From positions 12,008-76,007 of IMG/VR virus record IMGVR_UViG_3300021387_000109: a stretch of DNA of 64,000 nucleotides. One strand, written 5' to 3'. The position numbers and the translations under genes are program-made. The notes beneath the pieces are model-generated. The model searched no databases and was not told the DNA's origin. It worked only from the letters and a program-made list of their open reading frames with translations. Positions 16,429 through 49,580 of this stretch are shown here, in pieces (positions within the stretch are counted from its first letter, which is position 1; each line of letters begins with the position of its first letter). The DNA comes from a virus. Taxonomy: Duplodnaviria; Caudoviricetes.

Positions 16429-16447
16429 GGACTGTCGTCCTTAATTG
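16429..16447 (+). promoter_or_regulatory. vRNAP hairpin promoter P1 (predicted +1 G16447)
   Basis: GGAC-TGTC-GTCC-TTAATT-G; template-strand loop GACA closed by C-G. Confidence 0.7.
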
Positions 16448-16477
16448 ACTATTATCCTTTACTCATGGAGGTACATC

Positions 16478-16666
16478 ATGGATAACTATGGCCTTTCTCA
16501 GATCATTTCTTATCAGCTTGCGGAAATCCGTCAGGAGTTGCGTGAGCAGAGCGAGACTGAAGAACGGAACTGGCTCGTAGAAGAGCAAGAGCGCTTAGCA
16601 GGGATTCTGTGGACTTTGCACAGTGAGAACAAGGATCTCAAGGCTAAGAAGGAAGAAGACGACTAA
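16478..16666 (+). CDS. Pre-early hypothetical protein (62 aa)
   Basis: GGAGG SD, ATG 16478, own promoter and terminator. Confidence 0.8.
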   Translation: MDNYGLSQIISYQLAEIRQELREQSETEERNWLVEEQERLAGILWTLHSENKDLKAKKEEDD

Positions 16667-16671
16667 CCTTC

Positions 16672-16715
16672 AAAGGAGAAGGAACATTTAATAATGTTCC
16701 TTTCTCCTTTTTTTT
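16672..16715 (+). terminator. Rho-independent terminator
   Basis: AAAGGAGAAGGAACATT/AATGTTCCTTTCTCCTTT stem plus T-run. Confidence 0.85.
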
Positions 16716-16787
16716 CTTTATTTATTTCTTTAACACTCTTAACACATATACACATACACACATACACACTCAACCATACTCATTATT

Positions 16788-16807
16788 AGTCCTGTCGGAC
16801 TTAATTG
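16788..16807 (+). promoter_or_regulatory. vRNAP hairpin promoter P2 (predicted +1 G16807)
   Basis: AGTCC-TGTC-GGACT-TAATT-G. Confidence 0.8.
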
Positions 16808-16833
16808 ACATTAACCTTTCTAAGGAGATTACT

Positions 16834-17046
16834 ATGGGTTTCTTCAAAGGCGATATCACCAAGACTCTTAAGAACGCTTCTAAGGCTTGGGAGATCAAGA
16901 CAAGAGAGTGGTGTATTGAAACTAAAGATCAAGCACTACTTGATTTAGCAGAACATCGAAAGGATCTTGCAGAAAGAAAGCAAGAGTTAGGAGTAGATGA
17001 AAATGCTTGGAAGGCATTACAGAAGGAATTGGAGGACTTCAAATGA
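16834..17046 (+). CDS. Pre-early hypothetical protein (70 aa)
   Basis: AAGGAG SD, own promoter and terminator. Confidence 0.8.
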   Translation: MGFFKGDITKTLKNASKAWEIKTREWCIETKDQALLDLAEHRKDLAERKQELGVDENAWKALQKELEDFK

Positions 17047-17055
17047 CCTAAAATA

Positions 17056-17090
17056 AATAAAAGAGTACTTAATGTACTCTTTTATTTTTT
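17056..17090 (+). terminator. Rho-independent terminator
   Basis: AATAAAAGAGTAC/GTACTCTTTTATT 13 bp stem plus T-run. Confidence 0.8.
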
Positions 17091-17293
17091 ATTTACTTCT
17101 TTTTTATGGTTACACCCTTATTATACTGATAGTATATATATAAGGAAGAAGAAAGTCAAGAGAAAGATACATATTAATATTAGGTAAAAGTATGTAGATT
17201 TTATTTATACTTACTTTATATTTACTTACTTCTTATATCTTCCTTATAACTTAAAGAGGTAATAACTACTAAAGTGGTTATTTATAGTTTCAC

Positions 17294-17315
17294 TAAGTTC
17301 TGACGAACTTAATTG
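17294..17315 (+). promoter_or_regulatory. vRNAP hairpin promoter P3 (predicted +1 G17315)
   Basis: TAAGTTC-TGAC-GAACTTA-ATT-G. Confidence 0.8.
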
Positions 17316-17357
17316 AAAGAGAGAATTCCTCTCTCTTAACAACTCTAGGAGGCTTCA

Positions 17358-17621
17358 ATGCTTGAAAAGTTTATCAACCAAGAAGGACTTCGTGGCTATC
17401 GTGTAGAAGAGGCCAATGGCTTCTACTTCACTACTATCGAAGGGGACGAAATGTCTGATGTAGATGTAACAGTCTACGCCTTCAGTGCAGAATACATCCT
17501 TGATCGCATCACTCCGATGCCCTTCAAGGAGCAGGCTAAGCGACTGTACAATGAGTACAAGAACTCATTCCTGTTTAACAACATGCATGCCAACCTGTCT
17601 TTGAATAATGTTCTTTATTAG
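17358..17621 (+). CDS. Pre-early hypothetical protein (87 aa)
   Basis: AGGAGG SD, own promoter and terminator. Confidence 0.8.
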   Translation: MLEKFINQEGLRGYRVEEANGFYFTTIEGDEMSDVDVTVYAFSAEYILDRITPMPFKEQAKRLYNEYKNSFLFNNMHANLSLNNVLY

Positions 17622-17635
17622 GTTGGCAAATATCT

Positions 17636-17670
17636 GACCCATCATCATTTTGGTGTTGGGTCTTTTTTTT
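17636..17670 (+). terminator. Rho-independent terminator
   Basis: GACCC...GGGTC-closed stem plus T8. Confidence 0.75.
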
Positions 17671-17671
17671 C

Positions 17672-17693
17672 TAAGTCCTGACGGACTTAATAG
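17672..17693 (+). promoter_or_regulatory. vRNAP hairpin promoter P4 (predicted +1 G17693)
   Basis: TAAGTCC-TGAC-GGACTTA-ATA-G. Confidence 0.8.
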
Positions 17694-17718
17694 GATCAAC
17701 ACACAAGGAGGATACATC

Positions 17719-17940
17719 ATGGTTCCTATGGATATCAATGCTTACAAGGCTCTTGATGCTGAATACACCAAGGTGTTTGGTGAATTGGAAAGCATCTATT
17801 ACCTTGAAGTTCTGCCCTTTGGCAAGGCAGATAATGAAGCCGAATATAGTAGGCTTCAGAGTCGTCTTTCTGAGATTTCTCGCACTATGGATAAGTGGAG
17901 AAGTCTCATTGACGAAACTGAGCAAATTCTCAAGAAGTAA
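17719..17940 (+). CDS. Pre-early hypothetical protein (73 aa)
   Basis: AAGGAGG SD before ATG 17719 (start corrected from ORF track). Confidence 0.8.
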   Translation: MVPMDINAYKALDAEYTKVFGELESIYYLEVLPFGKADNEAEYSRLQSRLSEISRTMDKWRSLIDETEQILKK

Positions 17941-17987
17941 AAGATTTGAACCAGTGGCTACTTTGACCATTGGTTCATTTCCCTATT

Positions 17988-18007
17988 AGCCCTGTCGGGC
18001 TTAATTG
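17988..18007 (+). promoter_or_regulatory. vRNAP hairpin promoter P5 (predicted +1 G18007)
   Basis: AGCCC-TGTC-GGGCT-TAATT-G. Confidence 0.8.
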
Positions 18008-18125
18008 AGCGCTTACTCCGATTAACCCTTAACCGACCAATGATTAACCCTCTTCGCCTGCTCGATTCTAGAAAGAGCAGAGACCCTCTACAGACAAGGC
18101 CAGTCTGTAGGGGGTTTTATTTTTT
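18007..18125 (+). ncRNA. Candidate pre-early small RNA (about 115 nt)
   Basis: Lies between promoter P5 and a strong terminator with no SD-led ORF; GATTAACCCT x2; CTGCTC/GAGCAG hairpin. Confidence 0.55.
18083..18125 (+). terminator. Rho-independent terminator
   Basis: ACCCTCTACAGAC/GTCTGTAGGGGGT stem plus T-rich tail. Confidence 0.85.
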
Positions 18126-18130
18126 CTCTA

Positions 18131-18150
18131 AGTCCTGACGGACTCAATTG
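18131..18150 (+). promoter_or_regulatory. vRNAP hairpin promoter P6 (predicted +1 G18150)
   Basis: AGTCC-TGAC-GGACT-CAATT-G. Confidence 0.8.
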
Positions 18151-18172
18151 ACATTTACTTTTGGAGGTTATC

Positions 18173-18583
18173 ATGTCTTATCGTCTTTGTGTTGCTGGTT
18201 CTCGTAACTTCAACAACGTTCAACTCGCTGAAGAGGTTCTGAGCCAAGTGTTCAACTTCATTGCCAAGAAGCATGGTGATGCCATCACCATTATCTCTGG
18301 AGGTGCCAAGGGCGCTGACTCCGTTGGAGAGTTGGTGGCTCATAAGCACCACTACGACATTGAACGCTATCTTCCCGATTGGGATAGGTATGGCAAGAGT
18401 GCTGGTTACAAGCGTAATCAGTCGATGTGTGCAGCCAGTAATGGCTGTGTGGTGTTCTGGGATGGTTCCAGTAGAGGGAGTCATCACATGATCGACATCT
18501 GCCGTAAGGCAGGTAAGCCGATCATGGTGGTTGACATGAACGGAAGTGTCATGGACGTGTCCAAGATTCCGTTCCTGTCGTGA
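18173..18583 (+). CDS. SLOG-superfamily protein (YspA/DUF2493-like)
   Basis: VAGSR, ISGGAKGAD, DWDRYGKSAGYKRNQSM, FWDGSSRGSHHMI; GGAGG SD before ATG 18173. Confidence 0.88.
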   Translation: MSYRLCVAGSRNFNNVQLAEEVLSQVFNFIAKKHGDAITIISGGAKGADSVGELVAHKHHYDIERYLPDWDRYGKSAGYKRNQSMCAASNGCVVFWDGSSRGSHHMIDICRKAGKPIMVVDMNGSVMDVSKIPFLS

Positions 18584-18589
18584 AGAGTT

Positions 18590-18630
18590 AGGAGCCAGAG
18601 CATGTGGTGTGCTCTGGTTCCTGCTTTTTT
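18590..18630 (+). terminator. Rho-independent terminator
   Basis: GGAGCCAGAGCA/TGCTCTGGTTCC stem plus T6. Confidence 0.7.
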
Positions 18631-18645
18631 AATAGGTAAATAGTC

Positions 18646-19053
18646 ATGAAGTTTAGAGATATTTATTGGTTCTTGAGCAATTTCTATCCTTGCAGGATTA
18701 CTTTCAATGGACATACATATTTATGTGCTGAAGCGGCATATCAAGCACAGAAATGTCCTGAAAGAGCCATAGAATTTATTAGTCTGAATGGTCTTCAGGC
18801 CAAAAGATTGGGTAGGCATGTTGCAATGGCTAAAGACTTTAATGAGCACAAGGTATACATCATGTATCAGGTGCTTTATTACAAGTTCACTCAGAATCCT
18901 GCTTTAAAAGATAAATTGCTTGGTACTCATGATCTATATCTGCAAGAGGACAATACATGGCATGACACCTATTGGGGTGTTTGCAATGGTATTGGACAAA
19001 ATGTGCTTGGCAGATTGCTCATGTGTGTTCGAGACGATTTAAAACACATCTAA
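18646..19053 (+). CDS. NADAR family ADP-ribose hydrolase (YbiA-like)
   Basis: FLSNFYP, AEAAYQAQK, KFTQN..L...LL.T, DTYWG, GQNVLGRLLM.VR. Confidence 0.92.
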   Translation: MKFRDIYWFLSNFYPCRITFNGHTYLCAEAAYQAQKCPERAIEFISLNGLQAKRLGRHVAMAKDFNEHKVYIMYQVLYYKFTQNPALKDKLLGTHDLYLQEDNTWHDTYWGVCNGIGQNVLGRLLMCVRDDLKHI

Positions 19054-19062
19054 TTCCTATAT

Positions 19063-19081
19063 GCCCTGGCGGGCTTATATG
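19063..19081 (+). promoter_or_regulatory. vRNAP hairpin promoter P7 (predicted +1 G19081)
   Basis: GCCC-TGGC-GGGC-TTATAT-G; template loop GCCA; same loop-to-G spacing as P1-P6. Confidence 0.65.
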
Positions 19082-19108
19082 GCAAAACTAACCCAAAAGG
19101 AGACAATC

Positions 19109-23215: not shown

Positions 23216-23242
23216 AATTAATAAAGCCCTCAATAGAGGGCT

Positions 23243-23305
23243 TATTTATTAGTGTTCGGTGGTAGAGTTTTGCTCCTATTGGCTACTGTCGAACACTAAT
23301 AAATA
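23243..23305 (+). ncRNA. 23 bp hairpin with 17 nt loop containing CTCCTA (sRNA or RNase III site)
   Basis: TATTTATTAGTGTTCGGTGGTAG pairs with CTACTGTCGAACACTAATAAATA; three G-U pairs favour a plus-strand RNA. Confidence 0.55.
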
Positions 23306-23323
23306 ACTATTTTGGAGATAGTC

Positions 23324-24901: not shown

Positions 24902-24929
24902 GCATAAAACCCCTCATCATTAGAGGGGT

Positions 24930-25010
24930 TATTTATTAGCATCCAGATAGACTTTGCTTCGTTTGATGTTCCTTCTATCCTTGTTCGTTTTATCTGGGTG
25001 CTAATAAATA
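24930..25010 (+). ncRNA. 20 bp hairpin with 41 nt pyrimidine-rich loop (sRNA or RNase III site)
   Basis: TATTTATTAGCATCCAGATA pairs with TATCTGGGTGCTAATAAATA; same outer arms and context as 23243-23305. Confidence 0.55.
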
Positions 25011-25029
25011 ATCACAAAAGGAGATTGTT

Positions 25030-25797: not shown

Positions 25798-26770
25798 AGC
25801 AAAACTCGTTCCCTTTCTCCAGAGTTCACCTGGAATGGGAAAGAGTAGTCTCATTAAGGAAATTGCCAAGGAATGGAATCTTGAACTAATTGATGTTCGA
25901 CTTTCCACTATGGAACCCTGTGATTTAAACGGCTTACCAACATTTGATATGGATGGTAAAGCTACATTCCATCCTTATTCCATGTATCCTCTTGAAGGCA
26001 TGACACCTCCTGAAGGTAAAGATGGTTGGCTGTTGTTCCTTGATGAATTTAATGCTGCACCTAGAGCAGTTCAGGCAGCAGCCTATAGAGTGGTGTTGGA
26101 TCATGAAATTGGACAATACAAACTTCATCCAAACTGTCTTGTTGCCTGTGCTGGTAATTTGTCTACTGATAATGCCATCACTACTCGATTGAGTACAGCA
26201 ATGCTTTCAAGACTTATCCATATTCATATGGAAGTTAGTCTTAAGGATTGGATGGAGGCAGTAGCAATTCCTCAGGCATATGATGAGAGAGTTATTGCTT
26301 TCTTGAATATGTATCCTGACAAATTGATGCAGTTTGATCCAGAAAGAGAAGATGAAACATTCTCTTGTCCACGAACATGGGAATTCACTAATAGACTAAT
26401 TAAGCCTATTAAGAATCTCACTGAGACTGATGCAATTCTTCTATCTGGAACAATTACACCAGATATTGCTACTGAATTTGTTCAGTTTACCAAGGTCTAT
26501 AAGCACCTTGTTACTTTGAAGGAAATTGTTGATAAGGATGGAGATTGTCCTGTTCCTGATGATATGGCTACAAGATATGCCATCTTGGTTCATCTTATGA
26601 TGAATGTTAAGAAAGATGATTTTGAACCAGTATTGAAATATGTGGATAAGTTCGATTCTTCAATGAAGATTGTTTTCGTCAGAAACATCATCAAGAGAAT
26701 GCCTGAATTTAGAACACATCCAGCAATGGTTCAGATGATCATTAGGGAAGGCAAGTATCTCCTTGGATAG
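25745..26770 (+). CDS. MoxR-like AAA+ ATPase (N4 gp24-like)
   Basis: SSPGMGKS Walker A, LLFLDEF Walker B, AGN, SRLIH, FSCPRTW. Confidence 0.92.
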   Translation: MLTLTPSKTKEALIKCFKAKLVPFLQSSPGMGKSSLIKEIAKEWNLELIDVRLSTMEPCDLNGLPTFDMDGKATFHPYSMYPLEGMTPPEGKDGWLLFLDEFNAAPRAVQAAAYRVVLDHEIGQYKLHPNCLVACAGNLSTDNAITTRLSTAMLSRLIHIHMEVSLKDWMEAVAIPQAYDERVIAFLNMYPDKLMQFDPEREDETFSCPRTWEFTNRLIKPIKNLTETDAILLSGTITPDIATEFVQFTKVYKHLVTLKEIVDKDGDCPVPDDMATRYAILVHLMMNVKKDDFEPVLKYVDKFDSSMKIVFVRNIIKRMPEFRTHPAMVQMIIREGKYLLG

Positions 26771-27894: not shown

Positions 27895-28706
27895 ATAACA
27901 CACCTAAAGTAGAAATTATTGCTGATTCTATTAATAGAAGTTGCCCAAGGTTGACAACATTCAGGTTAACCTATTGGAGACCAATCCTTGCGGAGATGAA
28001 TACTCATAGAGTGTTCTCTCGCAATGCCAGTTCCTCAAGAGCAATGAGGTTTGAAAATCTTGTTGATCAGGTAGTGGATGATCCTTGGATGCCTAAGCAT
28101 TGGGCTTCTGAGCAGAAGGGAATGGTTGCAGGTGAAGAATTTGATGAAAAGACTAAGAATTTCATTGAGAAGCAGATTGCAGAATTAGCCAGATATACGG
28201 CTGAAACTCTAATGCATATCAATGACAGTGTGATTAATCAGACTGGCAAGGGAATTCATAAGGAATTCATCAATCGTTACCTTGAACCATTCCGTCCAGT
28301 AACTCAACTGATTACTGCAACGGATTGGACTAATTTCTTTAAGTTGCGTACTGCTTCTGATGCACAGCCTGAGATTAGAGATGTTGCTCTTGCAATGCAG
28401 GATCTATATCTCTCTCATACTCCTGAAGTAATCAAGGACAATGGCTGGCATCTTCCCTTCATTACTGAAGAAGAGAAAACAAAGTATGACATCAATATCT
28501 TGAAGAAGATTTCTGTTGCCAGGTGTGCAAGAGTGTCATATGACTCAACTAAGTTCGATCTGGACAAGGATATTGCCCTACATGACAGATTGCTTAAGAA
28601 TGGGCATTTAAGCCCATTTGAGCATATTGCCACTCCAATGTTCACGAAGGTATTGGAAAGGAATTTCCGAGGTTGGAACCAGTATAGAACAATGCTTGCT
28701 GGTTAA
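27891..28706 (+). CDS. thyX: Flavin-dependent thymidylate synthase
   Basis: EMNTHRVFSRNASSSRA, NFFKLR, AQPEI, SVARCARVSY, HLSPFEH. Confidence 0.9.
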   Translation: MNNTPKVEIIADSINRSCPRLTTFRLTYWRPILAEMNTHRVFSRNASSSRAMRFENLVDQVVDDPWMPKHWASEQKGMVAGEEFDEKTKNFIEKQIAELARYTAETLMHINDSVINQTGKGIHKEFINRYLEPFRPVTQLITATDWTNFFKLRTASDAQPEIRDVALAMQDLYLSHTPEVIKDNGWHLPFITEEEKTKYDINILKKISVARCARVSYDSTKFDLDKDIALHDRLLKNGHLSPFEHIATPMFTKVLERNFRGWNQYRTMLAG

Positions 28707-28712
28707 TTGATT

Positions 28713-28745
28713 AAATCCCCTGTCTAATAAACAGGGGATTTTCTT
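28713..28745 (+). terminator. Rho-independent terminator
   Basis: AAATCCCCTGT/ACAGGGGATTT 11 bp stem. Confidence 0.75.
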
Positions 28746-28749
28746 ATTT

Positions 28750-29040
28750 ATGCTACAAGATCCTACCAGACTTTTTTACAATGATTTCAAATATGCATAT
28801 GAACATTGGTTGGATGCTGTAGCATCTGAACCAGAAGGAGAATTTAGTGAAGAAGCCCTTAATTGGGAGGCTTTACTGGTTAAACGCTGTGTAGCAGCAG
28901 TAAAGAAACATTTGATTCCTCCTTATCTTGAAGTCAAAAAGACTACAAGAGGAGTAGAATCTCTTACTCTCATTGCTCCTGACAATAAGAACTATTGGGA
29001 ATACATCAGAAATTGGTTAGGAGTTATTGACCATATTTAA
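28750..29040 (+). CDS. Hypothetical protein (96 aa)
   Basis: ORF track. Confidence 0.65.
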   Translation: MLQDPTRLFYNDFKYAYEHWLDAVASEPEGEFSEEALNWEALLVKRCVAAVKKHLIPPYLEVKKTTRGVESLTLIAPDNKNYWEYIRNWLGVIDHI

Positions 29041-29041
29041 T

Positions 29042-29069
29042 GGGCCTATAGCTCAATTGGTTAGAGCAC
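29042..29069 (+). pseudogene. Orphan 5' fragment of a tRNA gene (acceptor 5' strand plus D arm)
   Basis: GGGCCTA-TA-GCTC-AATTGGTTA-GAGC-A then AT-rich sequence; no matching 3' half found. Confidence 0.75.
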
Positions 29070-29126
29070 TTGATTAAATAAACTGATTTAATTATAATTT
29101 AATTTATTTAAAAGGGTGCTTTAACT

Positions 29127-29567
29127 ATGGAAATACAATTAGAATATCCATACAACAAAGATTGGCGTAAAGGATACTTAGTAAAAAATTCTGAAAACCG
29201 AGATACAGTAATTTTGTTCAACTCATCTTCAGATAGATCTTCTACCCAATATGCAAGATATCTAATGGCTGTCTCTTTGCAAAGATATTTAACAGATGAT
29301 GAAACTGTAGATCATATAGATGGTAATAAAAATAATAATGATTTGAAAAATCTACAGATTTTATCTAAAGGAGATAACATTAGAAAATCTTCTAAAAAAC
29401 CAGATTATATTTGTATATGTCCTATTTGTCATAAAACATTTACAGTTCCTAGAAAAAAAGCTTCTGGCATTGTGGCAAAGAAGAAAATACTTTCAGGAAC
29501 TAAATGTTGTTCTAGACAATGTGGATATAAACAAGTATCTAAAACATTAATGGGCCGTGAGCCATAG
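29127..29567 (+). CDS. HNH homing endonuclease with C-terminal zinc finger
   Basis: VDHIDGNKNNNDLKNLQILS..DN HNH motif; CPIC and CCSRQC; stop codon lies inside the following tRNA. Confidence 0.9.
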   Translation: MEIQLEYPYNKDWRKGYLVKNSENRDTVILFNSSSDRSSTQYARYLMAVSLQRYLTDDETVDHIDGNKNNNDLKNLQILSKGDNIRKSSKKPDYICICPICHKTFTVPRKKASGIVAKKKILSGTKCCSRQCGYKQVSKTLMGREP

Positions 29568-29628
29568 TAGTAGAGGCAGCGTTCTCATAAAGCGCAGACA
29601 GTAGGTGCAAGTCCTACACGGCCTACCA
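29552..29628 (+). tRNA. tRNA-CAT (Met or Ile2), non-canonical D arm
   Basis: GGGCCGT/ACGGCCT acceptor, GCGTT-CTCATAA-AGCGC, GTAGG-TGCAAGT-CCTAC, encoded CCA; G8 and no G18G19. Confidence 0.8.
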
Positions 29629-29634
29629 AATTTT

Positions 29635-29952
29635 ATGAAGAAGCGTTTTAACATTACTGCTACTATCCTTGATAAGCATGGAAAGGTTATTAGTGTAGGA
29701 CACAATTCCTATGTTAAGACTCATCCCCTACAGGCTCAATTAGCCCATAAAGTAGGCAAGGATAAGAAAGTATTCTTACATGCTGAAGTAGCAGCAATCA
29801 TTAAAGCAGGTAAAAGGATCAAGAAAGCACATACAATCTACATTACTAGGTACAATGCCAAAGGTGATCCTGTAAATGCATGTCCTTGCGCTATTTGCAG
29901 TTCTTTGATCCATGCTGTAAGAATTCCTAATGTGGTGTATACAAATGATTAA
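29635..29952 (+). CDS. Zinc-dependent cytidine/dCMP deaminase family protein
   Basis: SVGHN, LHAEVAAI, CPCAIC (HxE...PCxxC). Confidence 0.85.
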   Translation: MKKRFNITATILDKHGKVISVGHNSYVKTHPLQAQLAHKVGKDKKVFLHAEVAAIIKAGKRIKKAHTIYITRYNAKGDPVNACPCAICSSLIHAVRIPNVVYTND

Positions 29953-30955
29953 ATATCCTCACATTGAAAATATTTCTACTATTTCAAGTACACAACTAGT
30001 TCAACTAAACAATAAGACTTATTGTGTAACTGAGAAGATTCATGGTGCAAATTGTCAGTTTGTACATACCAAGAAGTATGCTGATGCTTGGGGAATCTTC
30101 TCTAGGAATAACCAGATTACTAATGAAAGTTTCTACAATGCTGTAGAAGTTTTAAAAGCAGAGATTATGAATCCTGCTTGGGCTGTTGAAGATTATCTTA
30201 GTAAATCTGGTTATCCTAGTGATAAGTATTATTATTTTGGAGAAATCTTTGGTGGTTGTTATGACCATCCAGAAGTACCCAAGGCAGTTGGAGCCAAGAG
30301 AGTTCAGAGAGGTGTTTATTATTCTCCTAAAAATCATTGGAAGTGCTTTGATATTGGCATTGAAAAAGATGGAGAGTTTCACTTCATTCCTCAGAAGATT
30401 TTATTTGCTGCTTATAAAGAAACCAACTTTCCTGTAGTACCTCTTCTTGGTGTTTACAGTACTCTTGAAGATGCTCTGAAGCATCCAAATAATGGTTTAT
30501 CAATTGTCCATAAGGACTATGGACTTCCTCCTATTGATAACAATATCATGGAGGGTGTTGTAATCAAACTTTGGGGTGAAGACACACCTTTCAATGATGA
30601 ACGAGTAGTCTTTAAGAATAAGAATGAAATTTTCAGCGAAAAAGCTCATAGTCAAAAGCAGCGAGACATTAAAGTACTATCTGAAAATTTTAGTGCTGTA
30701 TGTCAGATTGCTGATACATATTTGACTTCTAACAGAATTATCAATGCAATGTCTCATATTGGTGAATGTACCTTTAAGGACATTGGTTCAATCCTGAAGG
30801 AAGTTATTACTGATATTCATGATGAAATGAGTAAGGATTGTCCTGAATTCATTGCCTTGGAAAAAAAGGAACAGTCAACAGTCTGTAAACTTCTTTCTAC
30901 AAAAGCTGCTAAAATGATCAAAGAAGAAATCCTTAAACAGAGTACTGGCGCTTGA
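29945..30955 (+). CDS. RNA ligase 2 (T4 Rnl2-like)
   Basis: YPHIEN, TEKIHGAN (motif I), FSRN, FGEIFGG, FDI, MEGVVIK, FKNKNE.FSEK. Confidence 0.9.
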   Translation: MIKYPHIENISTISSTQLVQLNNKTYCVTEKIHGANCQFVHTKKYADAWGIFSRNNQITNESFYNAVEVLKAEIMNPAWAVEDYLSKSGYPSDKYYYFGEIFGGCYDHPEVPKAVGAKRVQRGVYYSPKNHWKCFDIGIEKDGEFHFIPQKILFAAYKETNFPVVPLLGVYSTLEDALKHPNNGLSIVHKDYGLPPIDNNIMEGVVIKLWGEDTPFNDERVVFKNKNEIFSEKAHSQKQRDIKVLSENFSAVCQIADTYLTSNRIINAMSHIGECTFKDIGSILKEVITDIHDEMSKDCPEFIALEKKEQSTVCKLLSTKAAKMIKEEILKQSTGA

Positions 30956-30990
30956 CTAGAAATCCTAGGAAATTAGTCAAGTGAAAAATA

Positions 30991-31054
30991 AGAATCGCTT
31001 TGGTAGTCTTCCTGGATCAGGGATGAGGAGGTTCAATTCCTCCCGATTCTTCCA
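30991..31054 (+). ncRNA. 64 nt tRNA-like RNA lacking a D stem (GAT at the anticodon position)
   Basis: AGAATCG/CGATTCT acceptor, T73 and CCA; GGAGG-TTCAATT-CCTCC T arm; 11 nt unpaired D region with TGGTAG; TTCC-TGGATCA-GGGA arm lacking U33 and purine 37. Confidence 0.65.
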
Positions 31055-31072
31055 CTTAATTCAAGGAGCATT

Positions 31073-31393
31073 ATGTCCAGATCATATAAAAAACATCCAG
31101 TTCATCCTATAACAGTTAGTGATTCAGAAAAGAATGATAAGAAGATCTGGCATTCATGCTTTAGATCCAAATCCAAACAATACATCAAAAATAAGTTGGT
31201 CTTTAATGATGATTGGGATTTCCCAATCCATTTTAGAAATGTATCCAATGTTTGGTGCTTTGATAAAGATGGTAAATGCTGGTTTTATCCTCTTACTTGG
31301 AAACGTGGTAAATCCATGTTTAAAAAGGATATAAAGACCTTGAGAAAATACCTGTATACTCAAAAATACCTTTATCAATTGTTTGGAAAGTAA
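31073..31393 (+). CDS. Basic hypothetical protein (MSRSY-type)
   Basis: AAGGAG SD; MSRSYKK.P...K...W..FR....NVWCFDKDGK. Confidence 0.75.
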   Translation: MSRSYKKHPVHPITVSDSEKNDKKIWHSCFRSKSKQYIKNKLVFNDDWDFPIHFRNVSNVWCFDKDGKCWFYPLTWKRGKSMFKKDIKTLRKYLYTQKYLYQLFGK

Positions 31394-31448
31394 AGACTTT
31401 GAGCCAAGACAGTTCTTTGGCGTAAAAGCACATAATAATTAACTATCT

Positions 31449-31523
31449 GGGTCTATAATACAAAGGTTAGTATAGCGGACTTTTAATCCGTCTATCTGAG
31501 TTCGAGTCTCAGTGGACCCACCA
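31449..31523 (+). tRNA. tRNA-Lys(TTT)
   Basis: GGGTCTA/TGGACCC acceptor, GCGGA-CTTTTAA-TCCGT, CTGAG-TTCGAGT-CTCAG, ACCA. Confidence 0.92.
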
Positions 31524-31530
31524 CAGAATT

Positions 31531-31711
31531 CATCATTATAAGCACGAAGAAGAATCAGGTATAGCGTACTTGATTTAGAGTTAACATGGAGGGTTAGTTG
31601 AGTACTCAACAACTAATCTATGTCTTGTTTAAAGAGCGAAAGCAATAGATTGCATGCAAATCTGTTGTATAAGTCACTTGTAAAACTCTCTGAATCCGGC
31701 TTATAATGATG
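31531..31711 (+). ncRNA. Candidate multibranch ncRNA (about 180 nt) between tRNA-Lys and tRNA-fMet
   Basis: Perfect 13 bp closing stem CATCATTATAAGC/GCTTATAATGATG plus at least five internal hairpins with G-U pairs. Confidence 0.65.
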
Positions 31712-31719
31712 TCACTAAT

Positions 31720-31793
31720 CGCGGAATGGTGTAATAGATGCACACAAGGCTCATAACCTTGAAGACTAGGTGCAATTCCTTGTTCCGCAACCA
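31720..31793 (+). tRNA. tRNA-CAT, initiator-like (C1:A72 mismatch)
   Basis: C-GCGGAA/TTCCGC-A acceptor, CAAGG-CTCATAA-CCTTG, ACCA; only two G-C pairs at the base of the anticodon stem; one T-stem mismatch. Confidence 0.85.
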
Positions 31794-31800
31794 ATTAACC

Positions 31801-31902
31801 GAGAAAAGAGGAAAATTTTTTTGATTAACCCCTAGAGTAGTTGGCTATTTGTTACAGAAACTATTCAATGGTATCGAAGAATTTTGTGCAACCTCTTTTC
31901 TC
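31801..31902 (+). ncRNA. Candidate rod-shaped ncRNA (about 100 nt) between tRNA-fMet and tRNA-Asn
   Basis: GAGAAAAGAGG/CCTCTTTTCTC 11 bp closing stem, then AAAATTTTTT/GAAGAATTTT and GAGTAGTT/AACTATTC helices. Confidence 0.55.
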
Positions 31903-31907
31903 TTTAT

Positions 31908-31983
<76 letters not shown>

Positions 31984-31984
<1 letters not shown>

Positions 31985-32290
31985 TTTAAAATGGTGCTTT
32001 GATTTCTTAATTCAATCCCGTAGAACATAGGCAATTTAAAAGGCACCATTTTAAATAGGACAAGATACGTGAGCAACTCATGTTGCTTCAAAGGTTTAAG
32101 CGTGTAACAAGAGATCTCTGTCAAGAAGTCTCTAGCGGGCAAAAGAAGTACGCCTCGACTTACCTCCTCCCGTATGATGAAAGGATATCCGTAGATATTC
32201 CTGCTCTTAAACCTTGGGAATCACACTAATGAGAGGCAAAGTTTGTAGAATACTCATATCGACATTAGTATGAAACCCTAAACCCTAATT
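31984..32290 (+). ncRNA. Structured spacer between tRNA-Asn and tRNA-Arg: 17 bp hairpin (31984-32056) plus a multibranch domain
   Basis: ATTTAAAATGGTGC/GCACCATTTTAAAT; AAGGTTTAAG/CTTAAACCTT (32091-32215); loop CCTCGACTTACCTCCTCC. Confidence 0.55.
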
Positions 32291-32295
32291 ATTAA

Positions 32296-32372
32296 CTCTC
32301 CATAGCATAACTGGAAAATGCCACAGACTTCTAATCTGTAGACTGTAGGTTCGAGTCCTACTGGAGAGACCA
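32296..32372 (+). tRNA. tRNA-Arg(TCT)
   Basis: CTCTCCA/TGGAGAG acceptor, ACAGA-CTTCTAA-TCTGT, GTAGG-TTCGAGT-CCTAC, ACCA. Confidence 0.93.
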
Positions 32373-32376
32373 GAAT

Positions 32377-32441
32377 TTGAACCAAGGGAAGTTATCTTTC
32401 ACTCATGACTTTTATTGCCTCCTATGCTTCTCTTGGTTCAA
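32377..32441 (+). ncRNA. 15 bp hairpin whose 35 nt loop is antisense to an SD-plus-ATG region
   Basis: TTGAACCAAGGGAAG/CTTCTCTTGGTTCAA; loop reverse complement CATAGGAGGCAATAAAAGTCATGAGTGAAAGATAA. Confidence 0.65.
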
Positions 32442-32455
32442 TCCGATTTTCAACT

Positions 32456-32540
32456 GCCTGAGTGTCGTAACTAGTAGCCGAAGCAGACTTAAAATCTGCC
32501 GCCGAAAGGCGTGTGGGTGCAAATCCCACCTCAGGTACCA
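32456..32540 (+). tRNA. tRNA-Leu(TAA)
   Basis: GCCTGAG/CTCAGGT acceptor, GCAGA-CTTAAAA-TCTGC, long variable arm CGCC-GAAA-GGCG, ACCA. Confidence 0.92.
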
Positions 32541-32553
32541 TTTTTCAATTCCT

Positions 32554-32922
32554 ATGCCTTCTACAAATTATCCAAATACTAGTTATGCAAGTCCAAATGT
32601 TAGTTATGTAAGGCCAGCTATTACAACTGGTATGCCCATAACAACTGCTTTTAAAGCTGTTGAAGATAATTTGGATAAATTAAATGATGCTGTATTTAAT
32701 TCCATTCAAGTTGATTCAGATTGGAAAATATCTGCATATGCTCATGCATGGACAACTAGTTACTTTGGTAAAACTAGAATTATTCTAAAAAATATTGGAA
32801 TAGAAATTAATTTAGATGTAGATGAAGATGCTTTAGAGAAATTAATTAAAGATCTTCAAGTTCATTTAAACTACATCAGAGATACCAGATCCAAGTGGTA
32901 TCTAGGTGAGCTATCTAAATAG
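32554..32922 (+). CDS. Hypothetical protein (start uncertain)
   Basis: 3' part of track ORF 32377-32922 after removing the tRNA overlap; no clear SD. Confidence 0.5.
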   Translation: MPSTNYPNTSYASPNVSYVRPAITTGMPITTAFKAVEDNLDKLNDAVFNSIQVDSDWKISAYAHAWTTSYFGKTRIILKNIGIEINLDVDEDALEKLIKDLQVHLNYIRDTRSKWYLGELSK

Positions 32923-32930
32923 AGGTATCT

Positions 32931-32990
32931 ATGACTGAAACAATGGTATTTTATATTTGTTTAACTGTTGGTGCAGTAGTAGTTCTATAA
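32931..32990 (+). CDS. 19-aa hydrophobic micropeptide MTETMVFYICLTVGAVVVL
   Basis: AGAGGT SD; exactly fills the gap between two genes. Confidence 0.45.
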   Translation: MTETMVFYICLTVGAVVVL

Positions 32991-32998
32991 GGATTTCT

Positions 32999-33358
32999 AT
33001 GACTAAGACTATTGAACTTACACAAGAAGAATTTGATCTTCTAGTCTATCTTTTAGATAAAGGTATTGATTGGGCAGAAACTAATCAAGATAAGATAGCA
33101 GGTATTGCTCTTAGCACTAAACTTGAAGCTCAGTCAAATGATTGGAAGACACGTTTTGAACTTGAGTATAGACAATTAAAGAAACGTACTCTAAAACTTA
33201 ATGATGTGCTTACCAAATGGGATAGTAAAGGAATACCTCCTGGTATTACTAAATGTCCCAAGAGTCTCTATGAGTGGCAGTATCAGAGTATGCTTCAATA
33301 CTTAGGTGCTCTAGAAGCAAGAGCAACAATTTTAGGAATTAATTTACATAAGGATTAA
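32999..33358 (+). CDS. Conserved phage protein (DWKTRF..EY.QL..R..KL family)
   Basis: SNDWKTRFELEYRQLKKRTLKL...CPKSL...QYQSM.QYL..LEARA; AAGGA SD before ATG 32999. Confidence 0.7.
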   Translation: MTKTIELTQEEFDLLVYLLDKGIDWAETNQDKIAGIALSTKLEAQSNDWKTRFELEYRQLKKRTLKLNDVLTKWDSKGIPPGITKCPKSLYEWQYQSMLQYLGALEARATILGINLHKD

Positions 33359-33360
33359 AC

Positions 33361-33633
33361 ATGAAGAGAATTTTTAATGAACTGGTTCTTGACAGACATT
33401 CTGGAACTGTAGAAATCAGTTCTTATGTTTCTGATGAAGATGCAAGAGAACGTAGAGGAGAAGTTCGTATTGAACAGGAAATTAATGGACATCATATCTC
33501 CTTGGATCTTCTTCCTGAAGAAGCAAATGCTTTATCTGCTGCTATCTTTCAAGCCACTTATCATATTGATAGGGAATTGACATATAAGTATGAGCAAGAA
33601 GTATCTACTCCGGTTAAGCAGGACGGAGCTTGA
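33361..33633 (+). CDS. Hypothetical protein (90 aa)
   Basis: AAGGA SD. Confidence 0.7.
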   Translation: MKRIFNELVLDRHSGTVEISSYVSDEDARERRGEVRIEQEINGHHISLDLLPEEANALSAAIFQATYHIDRELTYKYEQEVSTPVKQDGA

Positions 33634-34917: not shown

Positions 34918-35298
34918 ATGGAAAAGAATACAGATATGGTGAATAGACCACCACACTATAAGAAGCATATTGCTACTCTTGAACCTATTGATGTTCTAGA
35001 GTATCTTACCTTCAATCTTGGCAATGCCTTCAAGTATCTTATTCGAGCCAAGGATAAAGGAAATGAACTTCAGGATTTGAAGAAGTCAGAGTGGTATTTT
35101 CAAAGAGCTACTAGGAGAGGTGAAGTCGATGAATTAAAGCCAAAGACCCTTCTTCTACTAAGTTTATACTTTAAACATCAAAAGCAAGTATTTAAAGTAG
35201 GAGAATATAGATATGATTATTTTGAGCCAGATGCAATAATTGGTAATATGCGTAGATATATTCAATTCCGAATTGAAGAACTTGAGGAAAAAGAATAA
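34918..35298 (+). CDS. DUF3310 family protein (T7 gp1.7-like nucleotide kinase domain)
   Basis: DMVNRPPHY, EPIDV, FNLGNAFKYLIRA..KG..QDLKKSEWY. Confidence 0.85.
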   Translation: MEKNTDMVNRPPHYKKHIATLEPIDVLEYLTFNLGNAFKYLIRAKDKGNELQDLKKSEWYFQRATRRGEVDELKPKTLLLLSLYFKHQKQVFKVGEYRYDYFEPDAIIGNMRRYIQFRIEELEEKE

Positions 35299-35840
35299 TG
35301 GAAGAATTTGTTGAAAAGCGAGTGAAGATGCGTAATAACTTCGGTAGGAAGTTTGAAGTCTGCAAGAAGTATATTTCAGATCATGGTGAAACCAATATTG
35401 TTCTTCCTAGGAGACAAACTCCTCATTCAGCAGGATATGACTTTTATTGTGCAGAAACTGTTAGAATTCCTTCTATTTGGAAACAGGCTATCAAAGCTCT
35501 ATTTCTAAGGAAACCTGTACAACCTACAGTGGTGTTTACTCATGTCAAAGCTAAAATGCGTCCTAACGAGTTTCTTTTACTCGCTAATAGATCGAGCAGT
35601 CCTAGTAGGCTGGGTCTTGTATGTGCTAATGGTGTCGGCATTGTGGATAGGGATTTCTACAATAATCCTGATAACGATGGCGATATTGGTTTCTCCTTTT
35701 ATAATCTTATGCCTTGGGATACAGTACTTCATCCAGGTGACAGGATTGGACAAGGTATTTTCCAAACGTACCTAAAGACAGAAGATGATAGTCCCCTTAT
35801 TAAGTCAAGGTCTGGTGGCTTTGGTTCAACCAATAAGTAA
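35298..35840 (+). CDS. dut: Trimeric dUTPase
   Basis: SAGYDF, RSS, NGVGIVDRDFY, GDRIGQGIF, RSGGFGST. Confidence 0.93.
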   Translation: MEEFVEKRVKMRNNFGRKFEVCKKYISDHGETNIVLPRRQTPHSAGYDFYCAETVRIPSIWKQAIKALFLRKPVQPTVVFTHVKAKMRPNEFLLLANRSSSPSRLGLVCANGVGIVDRDFYNNPDNDGDIGFSFYNLMPWDTVLHPGDRIGQGIFQTYLKTEDDSPLIKSRSGGFGSTNK

Positions 35841-48601: not shown

Positions 48602-48845
48602 AATTGAACAGGCCATCAAGGACTATCTTAAGAATTACATCTCTATGCCTGGATGTGACTTCCGTATTGAAATGAGTGCTACCAGAGGTGCTGCTGGATT
48701 CATTGCAGAAGTTACTGTCTGCAAGGCAGAAGAGGTTCATACTCTTACTCCAAAGCAACTTGAAAAACCTGTTCCTGAAGTAAATACTGAAACAGGTGAA
48801 GTTGAACAGCCTAAGAGACAGTCTCTCTTCTCAGGTTTAAAGTAA
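48576..48845 (+). CDS. Conserved N4-like small protein
   Basis: MKINLTQPEIEQAIKDY...SLFSGL; AAGG SD. Confidence 0.7.
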   Translation: MKINLTQPEIEQAIKDYLKNYISMPGCDFRIEMSATRGAAGFIAEVTVCKAEEVHTLTPKQLEKPVPEVNTETGEVEQPKRQSLFSGLK

Positions 48846-49079
48846 ATGGACAACTCTGATAAAGTAGTCTTAATTGATGCCTCTAATGGAATAATTATGG
48901 AATATAAAGGTATCAAAGGTTCCTTATTTATTGATCCAGAGGCTGAAATTCTGCGTGGACAACTATTGAATACTAGTAAAATCCTTCTTATTTATGAAGG
49001 TAACACAATTGAAAGCATTAAGAAAACTTTCAAGAAATGTGTTAAAGCATACTTAGAAATGCTAACTGTGAAAGATTAG
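48846..49079 (+). CDS. HicB-like antitoxin N-terminal domain, orphan
   Basis: MEYKG..GS...D.E..ILRG.LL.....I.YEG.TI......F...V..YLE; no DNA-binding C-terminus and no hicA nearby. Confidence 0.7.
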   Translation: MDNSDKVVLIDASNGIIMEYKGIKGSLFIDPEAEILRGQLLNTSKILLIYEGNTIESIKKTFKKCVKAYLEMLTVKD

Positions 49080-49092
49080 TGTACAATAGGAA

Positions 49093-49302
49093 TCGAAGCG
49101 AAGAGTGGTAATATTGTAGTCATACTGACATGACAATCCTAGAAAGTTAAATCGGACCCCATCCACCAACACCACCATCCGATTTAACTTTCAGATGAAT
49201 CCTTGGGGTTTAACTCCTTAAATTCGTTTCATGCATATCTCCTTTACCCGAGGGTTCATCTGAAAGTTTATTTTAGACCTGCTTTTAAGCAGGTCTTTTT
49301 TT
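49093..49302 (+). ncRNA. Candidate small RNA (about 210 nt) with two long overlapping hairpins and own terminator
   Basis: 15 bp stem 49142-49192 with C-rich loop; 22 bp stem 49186-49268 with loop antisense to AAAGGAG...ATG; TACAAT at 49082; terminator 49275-49302. Confidence 0.7.
49275..49302 (+). terminator. Rho-independent terminator
   Basis: AGACCTGC/GCAGGTCT stem plus T-run. Confidence 0.85.
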
Positions 49303-49316
49303 ATATAGGCACCAAC

Positions 49317-49580
49317 ATGATTGATCTGAATAATATTGACATGTCTTTTGATAAAGGCATGCTAGGCATTGAATTGTCTAGAGAACGCTGGGAAATTATT
49401 CATAATGCTCTATTAACTTATGCCAAGAGTGATGTACATGCAATCAATCTCAATTCTTTTGATGATGTTGCAGAATTGTATTTAGATGTTCATGGAGTAT
49501 TGAAACTGTATGATCAGCAACTTGATAGATATAAGAAGATTGAAGGGCTTAAAAGAGCAGGACATAGAACCACTAAATAA
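49317..49580 (+). CDS. Hypothetical protein (87 aa)
   Basis: ATG 49317 after terminator (track start lies inside the RNA element). Confidence 0.6.
   Translation: MIDLNNIDMSFDKGMLGIELSRERWEIIHNALLTYAKSDVHAINLNSFDDVAELYLDVHGVLKLYDQQLDRYKKIEGLKRAGHRTTK

What the first reader, a model, noticed from the sequence alone, without database searches (positions are those of the whole stretch)
32377..32441. Hairpin whose whole loop is the antisense of a translation initiation region
The 35 nt loop reverse-complements to CAT-AGGAGG-CAATAAAAGTC-ATG AGT GAA AGA TAA: a perfect SD, spacer, start codon and three codons. The stem G-U pair becomes a C-A mismatch on the minus strand, so the plus-strand (antisense) RNA is the favoured form. 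The AGTCATG start context is also used by four phage genes (18646, 22563, 23324, 23594), but I found no full match in the window.
Basis: partly seen in the sequence, partly recalled or inferred. Interest (0 to 1): 0.7.

Follow-up and report, generated by a model that had tools for sequence, protein, structure and literature searches.

The report
Conserved hairpin between two phage tRNAs
An RNA hairpin sits between two tRNA genes of an N4-like rumen phage and exposes the mirror image of a ribosome binding site in its loop, but no matching message was found, so it is most likely a self-folding spacer RNA of the tRNA operon whose regulatory role is unproven.

Summary
The hairpin is real. It has a 15-16 bp stem with one G-U pair, a 33-35 nt unpaired loop and a fold z-score of -4.4. 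It lies on the transcribed strand, in the 83-nt spacer between tRNA-Arg(UCU) and tRNA-Leu(UAA) of a 76-kb N4-like sheep/goat-gut phage.

The loop's complement does read AGGAGG, 11 nt, ATG. About 1 in 1000 random 35-mers of this genome do the same.

Two relatives keep the hairpin. The more distant one keeps the anti-SD and anti-start blocks but loses the AGTC context and the 3-codon mini-ORF. Silent sites of the next gene are equally conserved (88%), so conservation proves little. A remote relative has Arg and Leu 4 nt apart, so the hairpin is probably a lineage-specific insertion.

No cognate target was found:
- Phage start sites pair with the loop no better than with shuffled loops.
- 50,697 phage records gave nothing.
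- 185,579 species genomes gave one chance hit.

There is no RNA evidence.

CUCCU occurs in 3 of the 7 strongest hairpin loops of this phage (P about 0.001; 0.015 without this one).

Best reading: a stem-clamped spacer RNA of the tRNA operon. A general anti-SD role is possible; a specific antisense role is unlikely. This scan has noted similar anti-SD hairpins in tRNA spacers of other phages.

The parts
32296..32372 (+). tRNA-Arg(UCU) with encoded CCA, directly upstream
   Evidence: ARAGORN; Rfam tRNA, 66.7 bits
32373..32376 (+). 4-nt A/U-rich linker between the CCA and the stem. It is a possible RNase E-type cut site (inferred)
   Evidence: Sequence; identical in L005 and L006
32377..32391 (+). 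5' arm of the hairpin
   Evidence: 87% identical in L005
32392..32426 (+). Unpaired loop of 35 nt, 78% identical in L005
32404..32406 (+). CAT, the complement of a start codon, inside a block of 8 nt conserved in L005
32418..32423 (+). CCTCCT, the anti-Shine-Dalgarno hexamer, inside a block of 14 nt conserved in L005. Predicted unpaired (0.96 or more)
32427..32441 (+). 3' arm of the hairpin
   Evidence: T32431 (G-U partner) is C in L005
32442..32455 (+). 14-nt single-stranded trailer up to the RNase P site of tRNA-Leu
32456..32540 (+). tRNA-Leu(UAA), directly downstream
31984..32056 (+). Sister hairpin flush against tRNA-Asn, with a 17-bp stem and a 39-nt loop (z = -5.2). Same build, unrelated sequence, no anti-SD

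Best explanation
The hairpin is a self-contained, stem-clamped RNA module in an internal spacer of the phage's tRNA operon.

**How it would work**
- It is transcribed on the plus strand as part of one long precursor. That precursor carries the Rnl2 ligase gene, six tRNAs and the next genes.
- It folds on its own between tRNA-Arg and tRNA-Leu.
- It is cut free, or left as a trailer, when RNase P cuts at the 5' end of tRNA-Leu and an endonuclease cuts the A/U-rich linker after the CCA of tRNA-Arg.
- The long stem is the selected part. It keeps the inserted 65 nt from interfering with tRNA folding, and it stops 3' exonucleases.
- The exposed loop has no cognate target. Its anti-SD tract is either chance or a second, general function (see the first rival).

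**Shown**: the position, the strand, the fold, presence in two relatives and absence from remote relatives.

**Inferred**: transcription, processing, stability and any function.
For: - **Position.** The hairpin sits 4 nt after the CCA of tRNA-Arg and 14 nt before tRNA-Leu, on the tRNA strand.
- **Transcription unit.** No terminator-like site lies between 28741 and 33403, so the tRNA island and its neighbouring genes look like one transcription unit.
- **Fold.** It is significant (z = -4.4), persists in the full precursor, and is better on the plus strand in both versions.
- **All four long spacers are closed by long stems next to the tRNA ends.** The closing stems are 31531/31711, 31801/31902, 31984/32056 and 32377/32441.
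- **Stem upkeep in L005.** The 12 lower pairs are kept, G-U becomes G-C, and the upper stem is rebuilt from other bases (z = -4.5).
- **Arms against loop.** The arms changed at 3 of 30 positions and the loop at 8 of 36.
- **Precedent in phage T4.** Small RNAs of unknown function are known in the tRNA region of phage T4 (RNAC and RNAD; PMC3014915, PMC9697503).
- **Precedent in E. coli.** A tRNA-operon spacer is released as a working RNA (3'ETS-leuZ; PMC8166272).
Against: - Remote relatives process Met-Arg-Leu with spacers of only 7 and 4 nt, so no hairpin is needed for tRNA maturation.
- Insulation does not explain why 65 nt were inserted in the first place.
- Conservation is not above neutral. 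Fourfold-degenerate sites of the adjacent gene are 88% identical between the window and L005, against 83% for the spacer.
- The difference between arms and loop is not statistically significant.
- This reading leaves two things unexplained: the perfect anti-SD plus anti-start tract, and the recurrence of CUCCU in other large hairpin loops.
Confidence: 0.35

Rival explanations
1. General anti-Shine-Dalgarno RNA. Once freed by tRNA processing, the hairpin uses its exposed CCUCCU, helped by the nearby CAU, to pair with strong GGAGG-type ribosome binding sites. Targets would be host messages or the phage's own early genes. This would dampen their translation in the middle phase. It would need no single cognate target.
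For: - CCUCCU is predicted unpaired and is kept in L005 inside a 14-nt identical block.
- CTCCT occurs in the loops of 3 of the 7 strongest perfect hairpins of the window (23242, 32377, 49186). P is about 0.001, or about 0.015 if this hairpin is left out.
- A further ACCTCCT lies in the Asn-Arg spacer at 32162.
- GGAGG-type sites are concentrated in the early genes behind the N4-type promoters (16467, 17348, 17707, 18163), while most other genes use weaker sites.
- This scan has noted similar anti-SD hairpins in tRNA spacers of other phages. These are unchecked leads.
Against: - Pairing of the loop with 65 phage start regions is no better than for shuffled loops: best -20.1 against -19.0 +/- 2.2 kcal/mol, reached by 30% of shuffles.
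- The early starts reach only -10 to -17 kcal/mol.
- A general anti-SD RNA would also hit the phage's own genes.
- The loops are pyrimidine-rich, which inflates the motif test.
- The motif was chosen after it had been seen.
- There is no expression evidence.
Confidence: 0.25
2. Neutral relic or selfish palindromic insertion. A short inverted-repeat sequence was inserted between tRNA-Arg and tRNA-Leu and is carried along without function. The TIR-like reading of its loop is coincidence.
For: - The hairpin is absent from remote relatives with adjacent Arg-Leu.
- The tRNA island is a hot spot for insertions. An HNH gene or the 106-aa ORF is present or absent between close relatives.
- The spacer is no better conserved than silent sites next door.
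- The Lys-Met spacer holds a partial copy of tRNA-Lys, which suggests decaying duplicates.
Against: - The four spacer stems are unrelated in sequence, so this is not one mobile family.
- In L005 the upper stem is rebuilt rather than lost.
- The chance of a perfect SD-to-ATG complement in one loop is about 0.001.
Confidence: 0.22
3. One reading: a specific antisense RNA. The whole loop pairs with one cognate translation initiation region of a host or a co-infecting phage and blocks it.
For: - The complement of a full TIR is displayed in an open loop.
- Both conserved blocks map to the SD and to the start codon with its first codon.
Against: - There is no match of 11 nt or more on any plus-strand transcript of the phage.
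- Only E = 3-9 matches were found in 50,697 phage records.
- The 19 conserved positions match once in 596 Gb of species genomes, at a non-TIR site.
- The spacer part and the codons differ between relatives.
- The 11-nt spacing is atypical.
Confidence: 0.07
4. The minus strand is the working one: a real ribosome binding site and mini-ORF read leftwards. Alternatively, the element is a DNA-level signal such as an N4-type hairpin promoter.
For: A perfect AGGAGG and ATG on the minus strand. N4-like phages use DNA hairpins as promoters (PMC9163698).
Against: - All genes from 18.1 to 51 kb are on the plus strand.
- The mini-ORF is 4 codons here and 15 in L005.
- The minus-strand fold is weaker.
- This phage's own early promoters are six short hairpins with a shared motif at 16431-18151, and none lies near the tRNAs.
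- Known N4-type promoters have 4-7 bp stems and 3-4 nt loops (PMC9163698).
Confidence: 0.03

Closest known systems
Phage T4 RNAC and RNAD (small RNAs from the T4 tRNA region)
   Same: They are small non-tRNA RNAs encoded among phage tRNA genes, made from the same region as the tRNAs, and of unknown function (PMC3014915, PMC9697503).
   Different: No sequence or family link was found (no Rfam match). This element is a plain 65-nt hairpin in an N4-like phage, and its RNA has not been observed.
E. coli 3'ETS-leuZ, a tRNA-operon spacer released as a base-pairing sponge RNA
   Same: It is a spacer of a polycistronic tRNA transcript that is excised and acts by base pairing (PMC8166272).
   Different: It is an external 3' trailer, not an internal spacer, and it sponges small RNAs rather than start sites. 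That review states that no stable internal spacer had been reported. No partner is known here.
C-rich or anti-SD loop regulatory RNAs (S. aureus RNAIII and RsaE, B. subtilis RoxS; own knowledge)
   Same: An unpaired pyrimidine-rich loop complementary to Shine-Dalgarno sequences.
   Different: Those are independent genes with short loops and proven targets. This one has a 35-nt loop in a tRNA spacer and no target or expression data.
N4-type hairpin promoters of Schitoviridae
   Same: A hairpin in an N4-like genome.
   Different: Known promoters have 4-7 bp stems and 3-4 nt loops (PMC9163698). This phage has six of that kind at 16431-18151. The element here has a 15-bp stem and a 35-nt loop.
tRNA-linked hairpins of murine gammaherpesvirus 68 (tRNA-miRNA units; own knowledge)
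   Same: A viral tRNA-like unit followed directly by a hairpin, which is freed by tRNA 3' processing.
   Different: It belongs to a eukaryotic virus and the miRNA pathway, so it is an analogy of layout only.

Membership tests
Trans-acting antisense RNA with a cognate TIR target | Extended complementarity to a real translation initiation region | tested here: not met
   - Own genome: longest plus-strand word 10 nt.
- TIR duplex energies are no better than for shuffled loops.
- Phage records: E = 3-9 only.
- 185,579 species genomes: one non-TIR hit.
- Limits: only exact patterns were searched and the host is unknown.
Trans-acting antisense RNA with a cognate TIR target | A discrete transcript of the proposed strand | tested here: inconclusive
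   An RNA library of the source sample holds 100% identical contigs at 28588-28766, 31476-31700 and 35283-35453, but none over the hairpin. Contigs show no strand, and DNA carry-over is possible.
Trans-acting antisense RNA with a cognate TIR target | Pairing region conserved in relatives beyond the neutral level | tested here: inconclusive
   Blocks of 14 and 8 nt are kept in L005. But the loop is 78% identical, against 88% at fourfold sites of the next gene.
tRNA or tRNA-like RNA | Cloverleaf or match to a tRNA model | tested here: not met
   ARAGORN and Rfam (E up to 5) call the six tRNAs, and Rfam gives two further weak tRNA-type matches elsewhere (30990-31051, 29042-29110). Neither reports anything at 32373-32455.
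Any Rfam 15 family | Covariance-model match | tested here: not met
   No match over 32373-32455 at gathering score or at E up to 5.
N4-type hairpin promoter | Short stem, 3-4 nt loop, shared flanking motif | tested here: not met
   The promoter motif of this phage occurs 6-7 times at 16431-19082 and not near the tRNAs. The stem and loop sizes differ from published ones (PMC9163698).
Intrinsic terminator | GC-rich stem, small loop, U-tract right after the stem | tested here: not met
   The terminator scan of 28500-33500 finds only 28713 and 33403. The loop is 35 nt and no T-run abuts the stem.
Minus-strand protein-coding mini-ORF | Reading frame conserved in relatives | tested here: not met
   Four codons in the window, 15 in L005 after a 1-nt deletion.
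Spacer-derived RNA of a tRNA operon (T4 RNAC/RNAD, 3'ETS-leuZ type) | Lies in a transcribed spacer of a tRNA cluster and folds independently | tested here: met
Spacer-derived RNA of a tRNA operon (T4 RNAC/RNAD, 3'ETS-leuZ type) | Accumulates as a stable processed RNA | not testable with these tools
   Only contigs of one old RNA run were available.

The most novel reading that the evidence does not exclude
The hairpin is one of a set of phage RNAs with long stems and large open loops: here at 23242, 32377 and 49186, plus the ACCUCCU domain at 32162. Each displays a copy of the ribosome's anti-Shine-Dalgarno sequence. tRNA processing or termination would release them, and they would damp translation from strong ribosome binding sites (host or early-phage messages). 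That would be an RNA-based counterpart of protein translational repressors such as T4 RegA. If the similar hairpins this scan noted in tRNA spacers of unrelated phages are the same thing, it would be a widespread, undescribed class of phage regulatory RNA.
Probability: 0.22. Interest if true: 0.75.

Novelty: new member of a known kind. Interest (0 to 1): 0.35.

Why it matters
Phage tRNA clusters have been known since T4 to hold small non-tRNA RNAs whose role is still unknown. If spacer hairpins like this one are released and use an exposed anti-SD loop, phages would have a cheap, protein-free way to shift translation between infection phases or away from the host. The tRNA genes would double as processing signals. 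As it stands, the element is a well-defined candidate for that test. It is not evidence for it.

Tried and rejected
- **More relatives by DNA pattern.** Three scans of viral contigs, a loop-free stem pattern in viral contigs and two metagenome scans found none. The five metagenome hits have no tRNAs and unrelated loops, so they are chance.
- **Relatives by protein.**
  - The Rnl2 ligase gave two contigs that end before the hairpin.
  - The 122-aa downstream protein gave L005 and L006 only.
  - ThyX and DNA polymerase gave 73 N4-like loci. Almost none has a tRNA island, and none has this spacer.
- **Sequencing runs.** The RNA run from the source sample has no contig over the hairpin. DNA contigs of sheep and goat gut runs cover it, but their letters there were not listed.
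- **Pairing between the loops of the two sister hairpins** (31984 and 32377): -10.2 kcal/mol, reached by 13% of shuffles, so rejected.
- **tRNA-Lys anticodon-loop look-alike in the loop**: not kept in L005, so rejected as a decoy.
- **Best genome-wide duplexes of the loop** (-26 kcal/mol at 26244 and elsewhere) lie inside coding regions, not at start sites.
The host could not be identified.
- **Literature.** Searches found no paper describing anti-SD hairpins in phage tRNA spacers.

Full report
**Context**

The window is bases 12008-76007 of a 76,007-bp virus record with terminal repeats.
- It is an N4-like phage. The 4007-aa ORF at 51884-63907 matches the virion RNA polymerase family (E = 3e-218). 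The ORF at 19636-21807 matches the N4-like RNA polymerase II.
- Six short hairpins with a shared motif at 16431-18151 look like N4-type early promoters.
- Runs that hold the DNA are sheep, goat and other animal gut metagenomes.
- Genes from 18.1 to 51 kb are all on the plus strand.

**What lies at the coordinates**

ARAGORN and Rfam place six tRNAs at 29552-32540. They lie around and downstream of an Rnl2-type RNA ligase gene at 29930-30955.

The finding lies in the 83-nt spacer between tRNA-Arg(UCU), 32296-32372, and tRNA-Leu(UAA), 32456-32540. The stem begins 4 nt after the CCA of tRNA-Arg and ends 14 nt before tRNA-Leu.

- 15 pairs, one of them G-U, and an open loop of 33-35 nt.
- As plus-strand RNA: -21.8 kcal/mol, z = -4.36.
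- The minus strand is weaker, at -19.0 kcal/mol and z = -2.45.
- In the full Arg-hairpin-Leu precursor the hairpin persists. The CCUCCU hexamer stays unpaired with probability 0.96 or more.

**Is the 'antisense TIR' more than chance?**

The complement reads AGGAGG, 11 nt, ATG, three codons, TAA.
- That SD-to-ATG pattern occurs 7 times in the genome. Three of these are real plus-strand gene starts, all with 5-7 nt spacers.
- It occurs in 0.09% of random 35-mers.
- For one loop this is unlikely. For a reader scanning many loops in many windows it is not decisive.

**Relatives**

- *L006* (about 97% identical) has the same hairpin.
- *L005* (85% identical over 689 nt) keeps it with changes:
  - The G-U pair becomes G-C.
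  - Two A-U pairs at the top are lost, and a new 5-pair upper helix forms (z = -4.5).
  - The loop keeps a 14-nt block with the anti-SD and an 8-nt block with the anti-start.
  - The four bases between these blocks change, which removes the AGTC context.
  - A 1-nt deletion changes the minus-strand mini-ORF from 4 to 15 codons.
- *Identity to L005 by part*: arms 87-93%, loop 78%, whole spacer 83%, tRNA-Arg 74%, tRNA-Leu 73%. Upstream of tRNA-Arg it is 44%, which is unalignable.
- *Neutral level*: fourfold-degenerate sites of the adjacent 122-aa gene are 88% identical. The spacer is therefore not conserved above the local neutral level, and I do not count conservation as evidence of function.
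- *Remote N4-like relative L013*: it has Met-Arg(UCU)-Leu(UAA) with spacers of 7 and 4 nt. Some 50 other N4-like loci have no such island. The hairpin is therefore probably a lineage-specific insertion, not a requirement of tRNA maturation. A loss in L013 cannot be excluded.

**Target searches**

- *Own genome.* The longest plus-strand match to the loop complement is 10 nt. The best duplexes lie inside coding regions.
- *Phage start regions.* Against 65 start regions the best energy was -20.1 kcal/mol. Shuffled loops gave -19.0 +/- 2.2, and 30% of them did as well. The small early genes with GGAGG sites reach -10 to -17.
- *Phage records.* blastn of the hairpin against 50,697 records gave only E = 3-9.
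- *Species genomes.* The 19 positions conserved in both versions, scanned as an exact pattern over 185,579 species genomes, matched once. The match is antisense inside a 391-aa ORF of a Nitrospirales genome.
- *Conclusion.* A cognate, near-perfect target is not supported. Imperfect targets in an unidentified host are not excluded.

**Expression**

An RNA library from the source sample has four 100% identical contigs in the 8-kb stretch laid. One covers the Lys-Met spacer (31476-31700). None covers the hairpin. These are contigs, so they give no strand or ends, and DNA carry-over is possible.

**Wider pattern in this phage**

All four long tRNA spacers are closed by long stems next to the tRNA ends, as earlier notes of this scan said.

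I listed the perfect stems of 15 pairs or more with 12-55 nt loops. There are seven, and three carry CTCCT in the loop (23242, 32377, 49186).
- From random windows of the same strand, P is about 0.001.
- Leaving out the hairpin under study, P is about 0.015.
- The loops are pyrimidine-rich and the motif was chosen after it had been seen, so this is suggestive only.
- A further ACCTCCT lies in the Asn-Arg spacer.

**Reading**

What is shown is a plus-strand, independently folding hairpin. It was probably inserted between two tRNAs, and it has been kept in structure through one round of divergence.

- *Most likely (0.35).* It is a stem-clamped spacer RNA of the tRNA operon. The stem insulates the insert from the tRNAs and stops exonucleases, and tRNA processing sets it free. 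The closest precedents are T4 RNAC and RNAD, whose roles are unknown (PMC3014915, PMC9697503), and the E. coli 3'ETS-leuZ spacer RNA (PMC8166272).
- *General anti-SD role (0.25).* This is the main rival and the most novel reading.
- *Functionless insertion (0.22).* This cannot be dismissed.
- *Specific antisense reading (0.07).* This is unlikely.
- *Minus-strand or promoter readings.* The data speak against them (PMC9163698).

This scan has flagged similar anti-SD hairpins in tRNA spacers of other phages. I did not check those notes. My literature searches found no description of such a class.

Noticed in passing
window 16431-18151: Six copies of a short hairpin (5-bp stem, 4-nt loop) followed by a shared TAATTGA-type motif, each ahead of a small ORF with a GGAGG ribosome site. 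They look like N4-type virion-polymerase early promoters (0 of 100 shuffles give as many matches).
   Followed up: partly
window 23242-23306 and 24927-25013: Two paralogous very long hairpins (24-25 pairs, z about -7 to -8) share their outer arm sequence. Each follows a terminator-like GC hairpin and precedes the ribosome site of a gene (23324, 25030). The loops are pyrimidine-rich, and one holds CTCCT.
   Followed up: partly
window 49142-49268, within the gap 48602-49509: Two overlapping long hairpins lie in a roughly 900-nt stretch where the only listed ORF is a TTG-start one that I judged spurious. The second has 22 pairs and a 39-nt loop with CTCCTT twice and a CATG, and is followed by a terminator-like hairpin.
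   Followed up: no
window 31476-31700: A 225-nt contig, 100% identical, from an RNA library of the source sample covers the 3' half of tRNA-Lys and most of the structured Lys-Met spacer. This may be a hint that this spacer RNA exists, but DNA carry-over is not excluded.
   Followed up: partly
window 31559-31571 against 31470-31482: The Lys-Met spacer holds a 13-nt copy (12 of 13) of the D-arm to anticodon-stem part of tRNA-Lys, so the spacers may contain decayed tRNA duplicates.
   Followed up: no
window 29047-29546 and 31055-31444; L002, L004: The tRNA island is an insertion hot spot. The HNH gene at 29127-29567 is absent in L002. The 106-aa ORF at 31073-31393 is absent in L004 and replaced by another HNH gene in L002.
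   Followed up: partly
window 32541-32556 (also 19050-19063, 29920-29932): The 122-aa gene starts 13 nt after the CCA of tRNA-Leu and has no Shine-Dalgarno site. Three genes share AATTCCTA just before the ATG. After tRNA processing, this message would be nearly leaderless.
   Followed up: no
window 30990-31051: A tRNA-like element with a paired acceptor stem and T arm. ARAGORN does not call it, and it scores only 22 bits against a tRNA-type Rfam model. It is conserved in L002 and L004.
   Followed up: no
L013 4726-4976: A remote N4-like relative carries Met-Arg(UCU)-Leu(UAA) with 7- and 4-nt spacers. This is the compact form of the same tRNA trio.
   Followed up: yes
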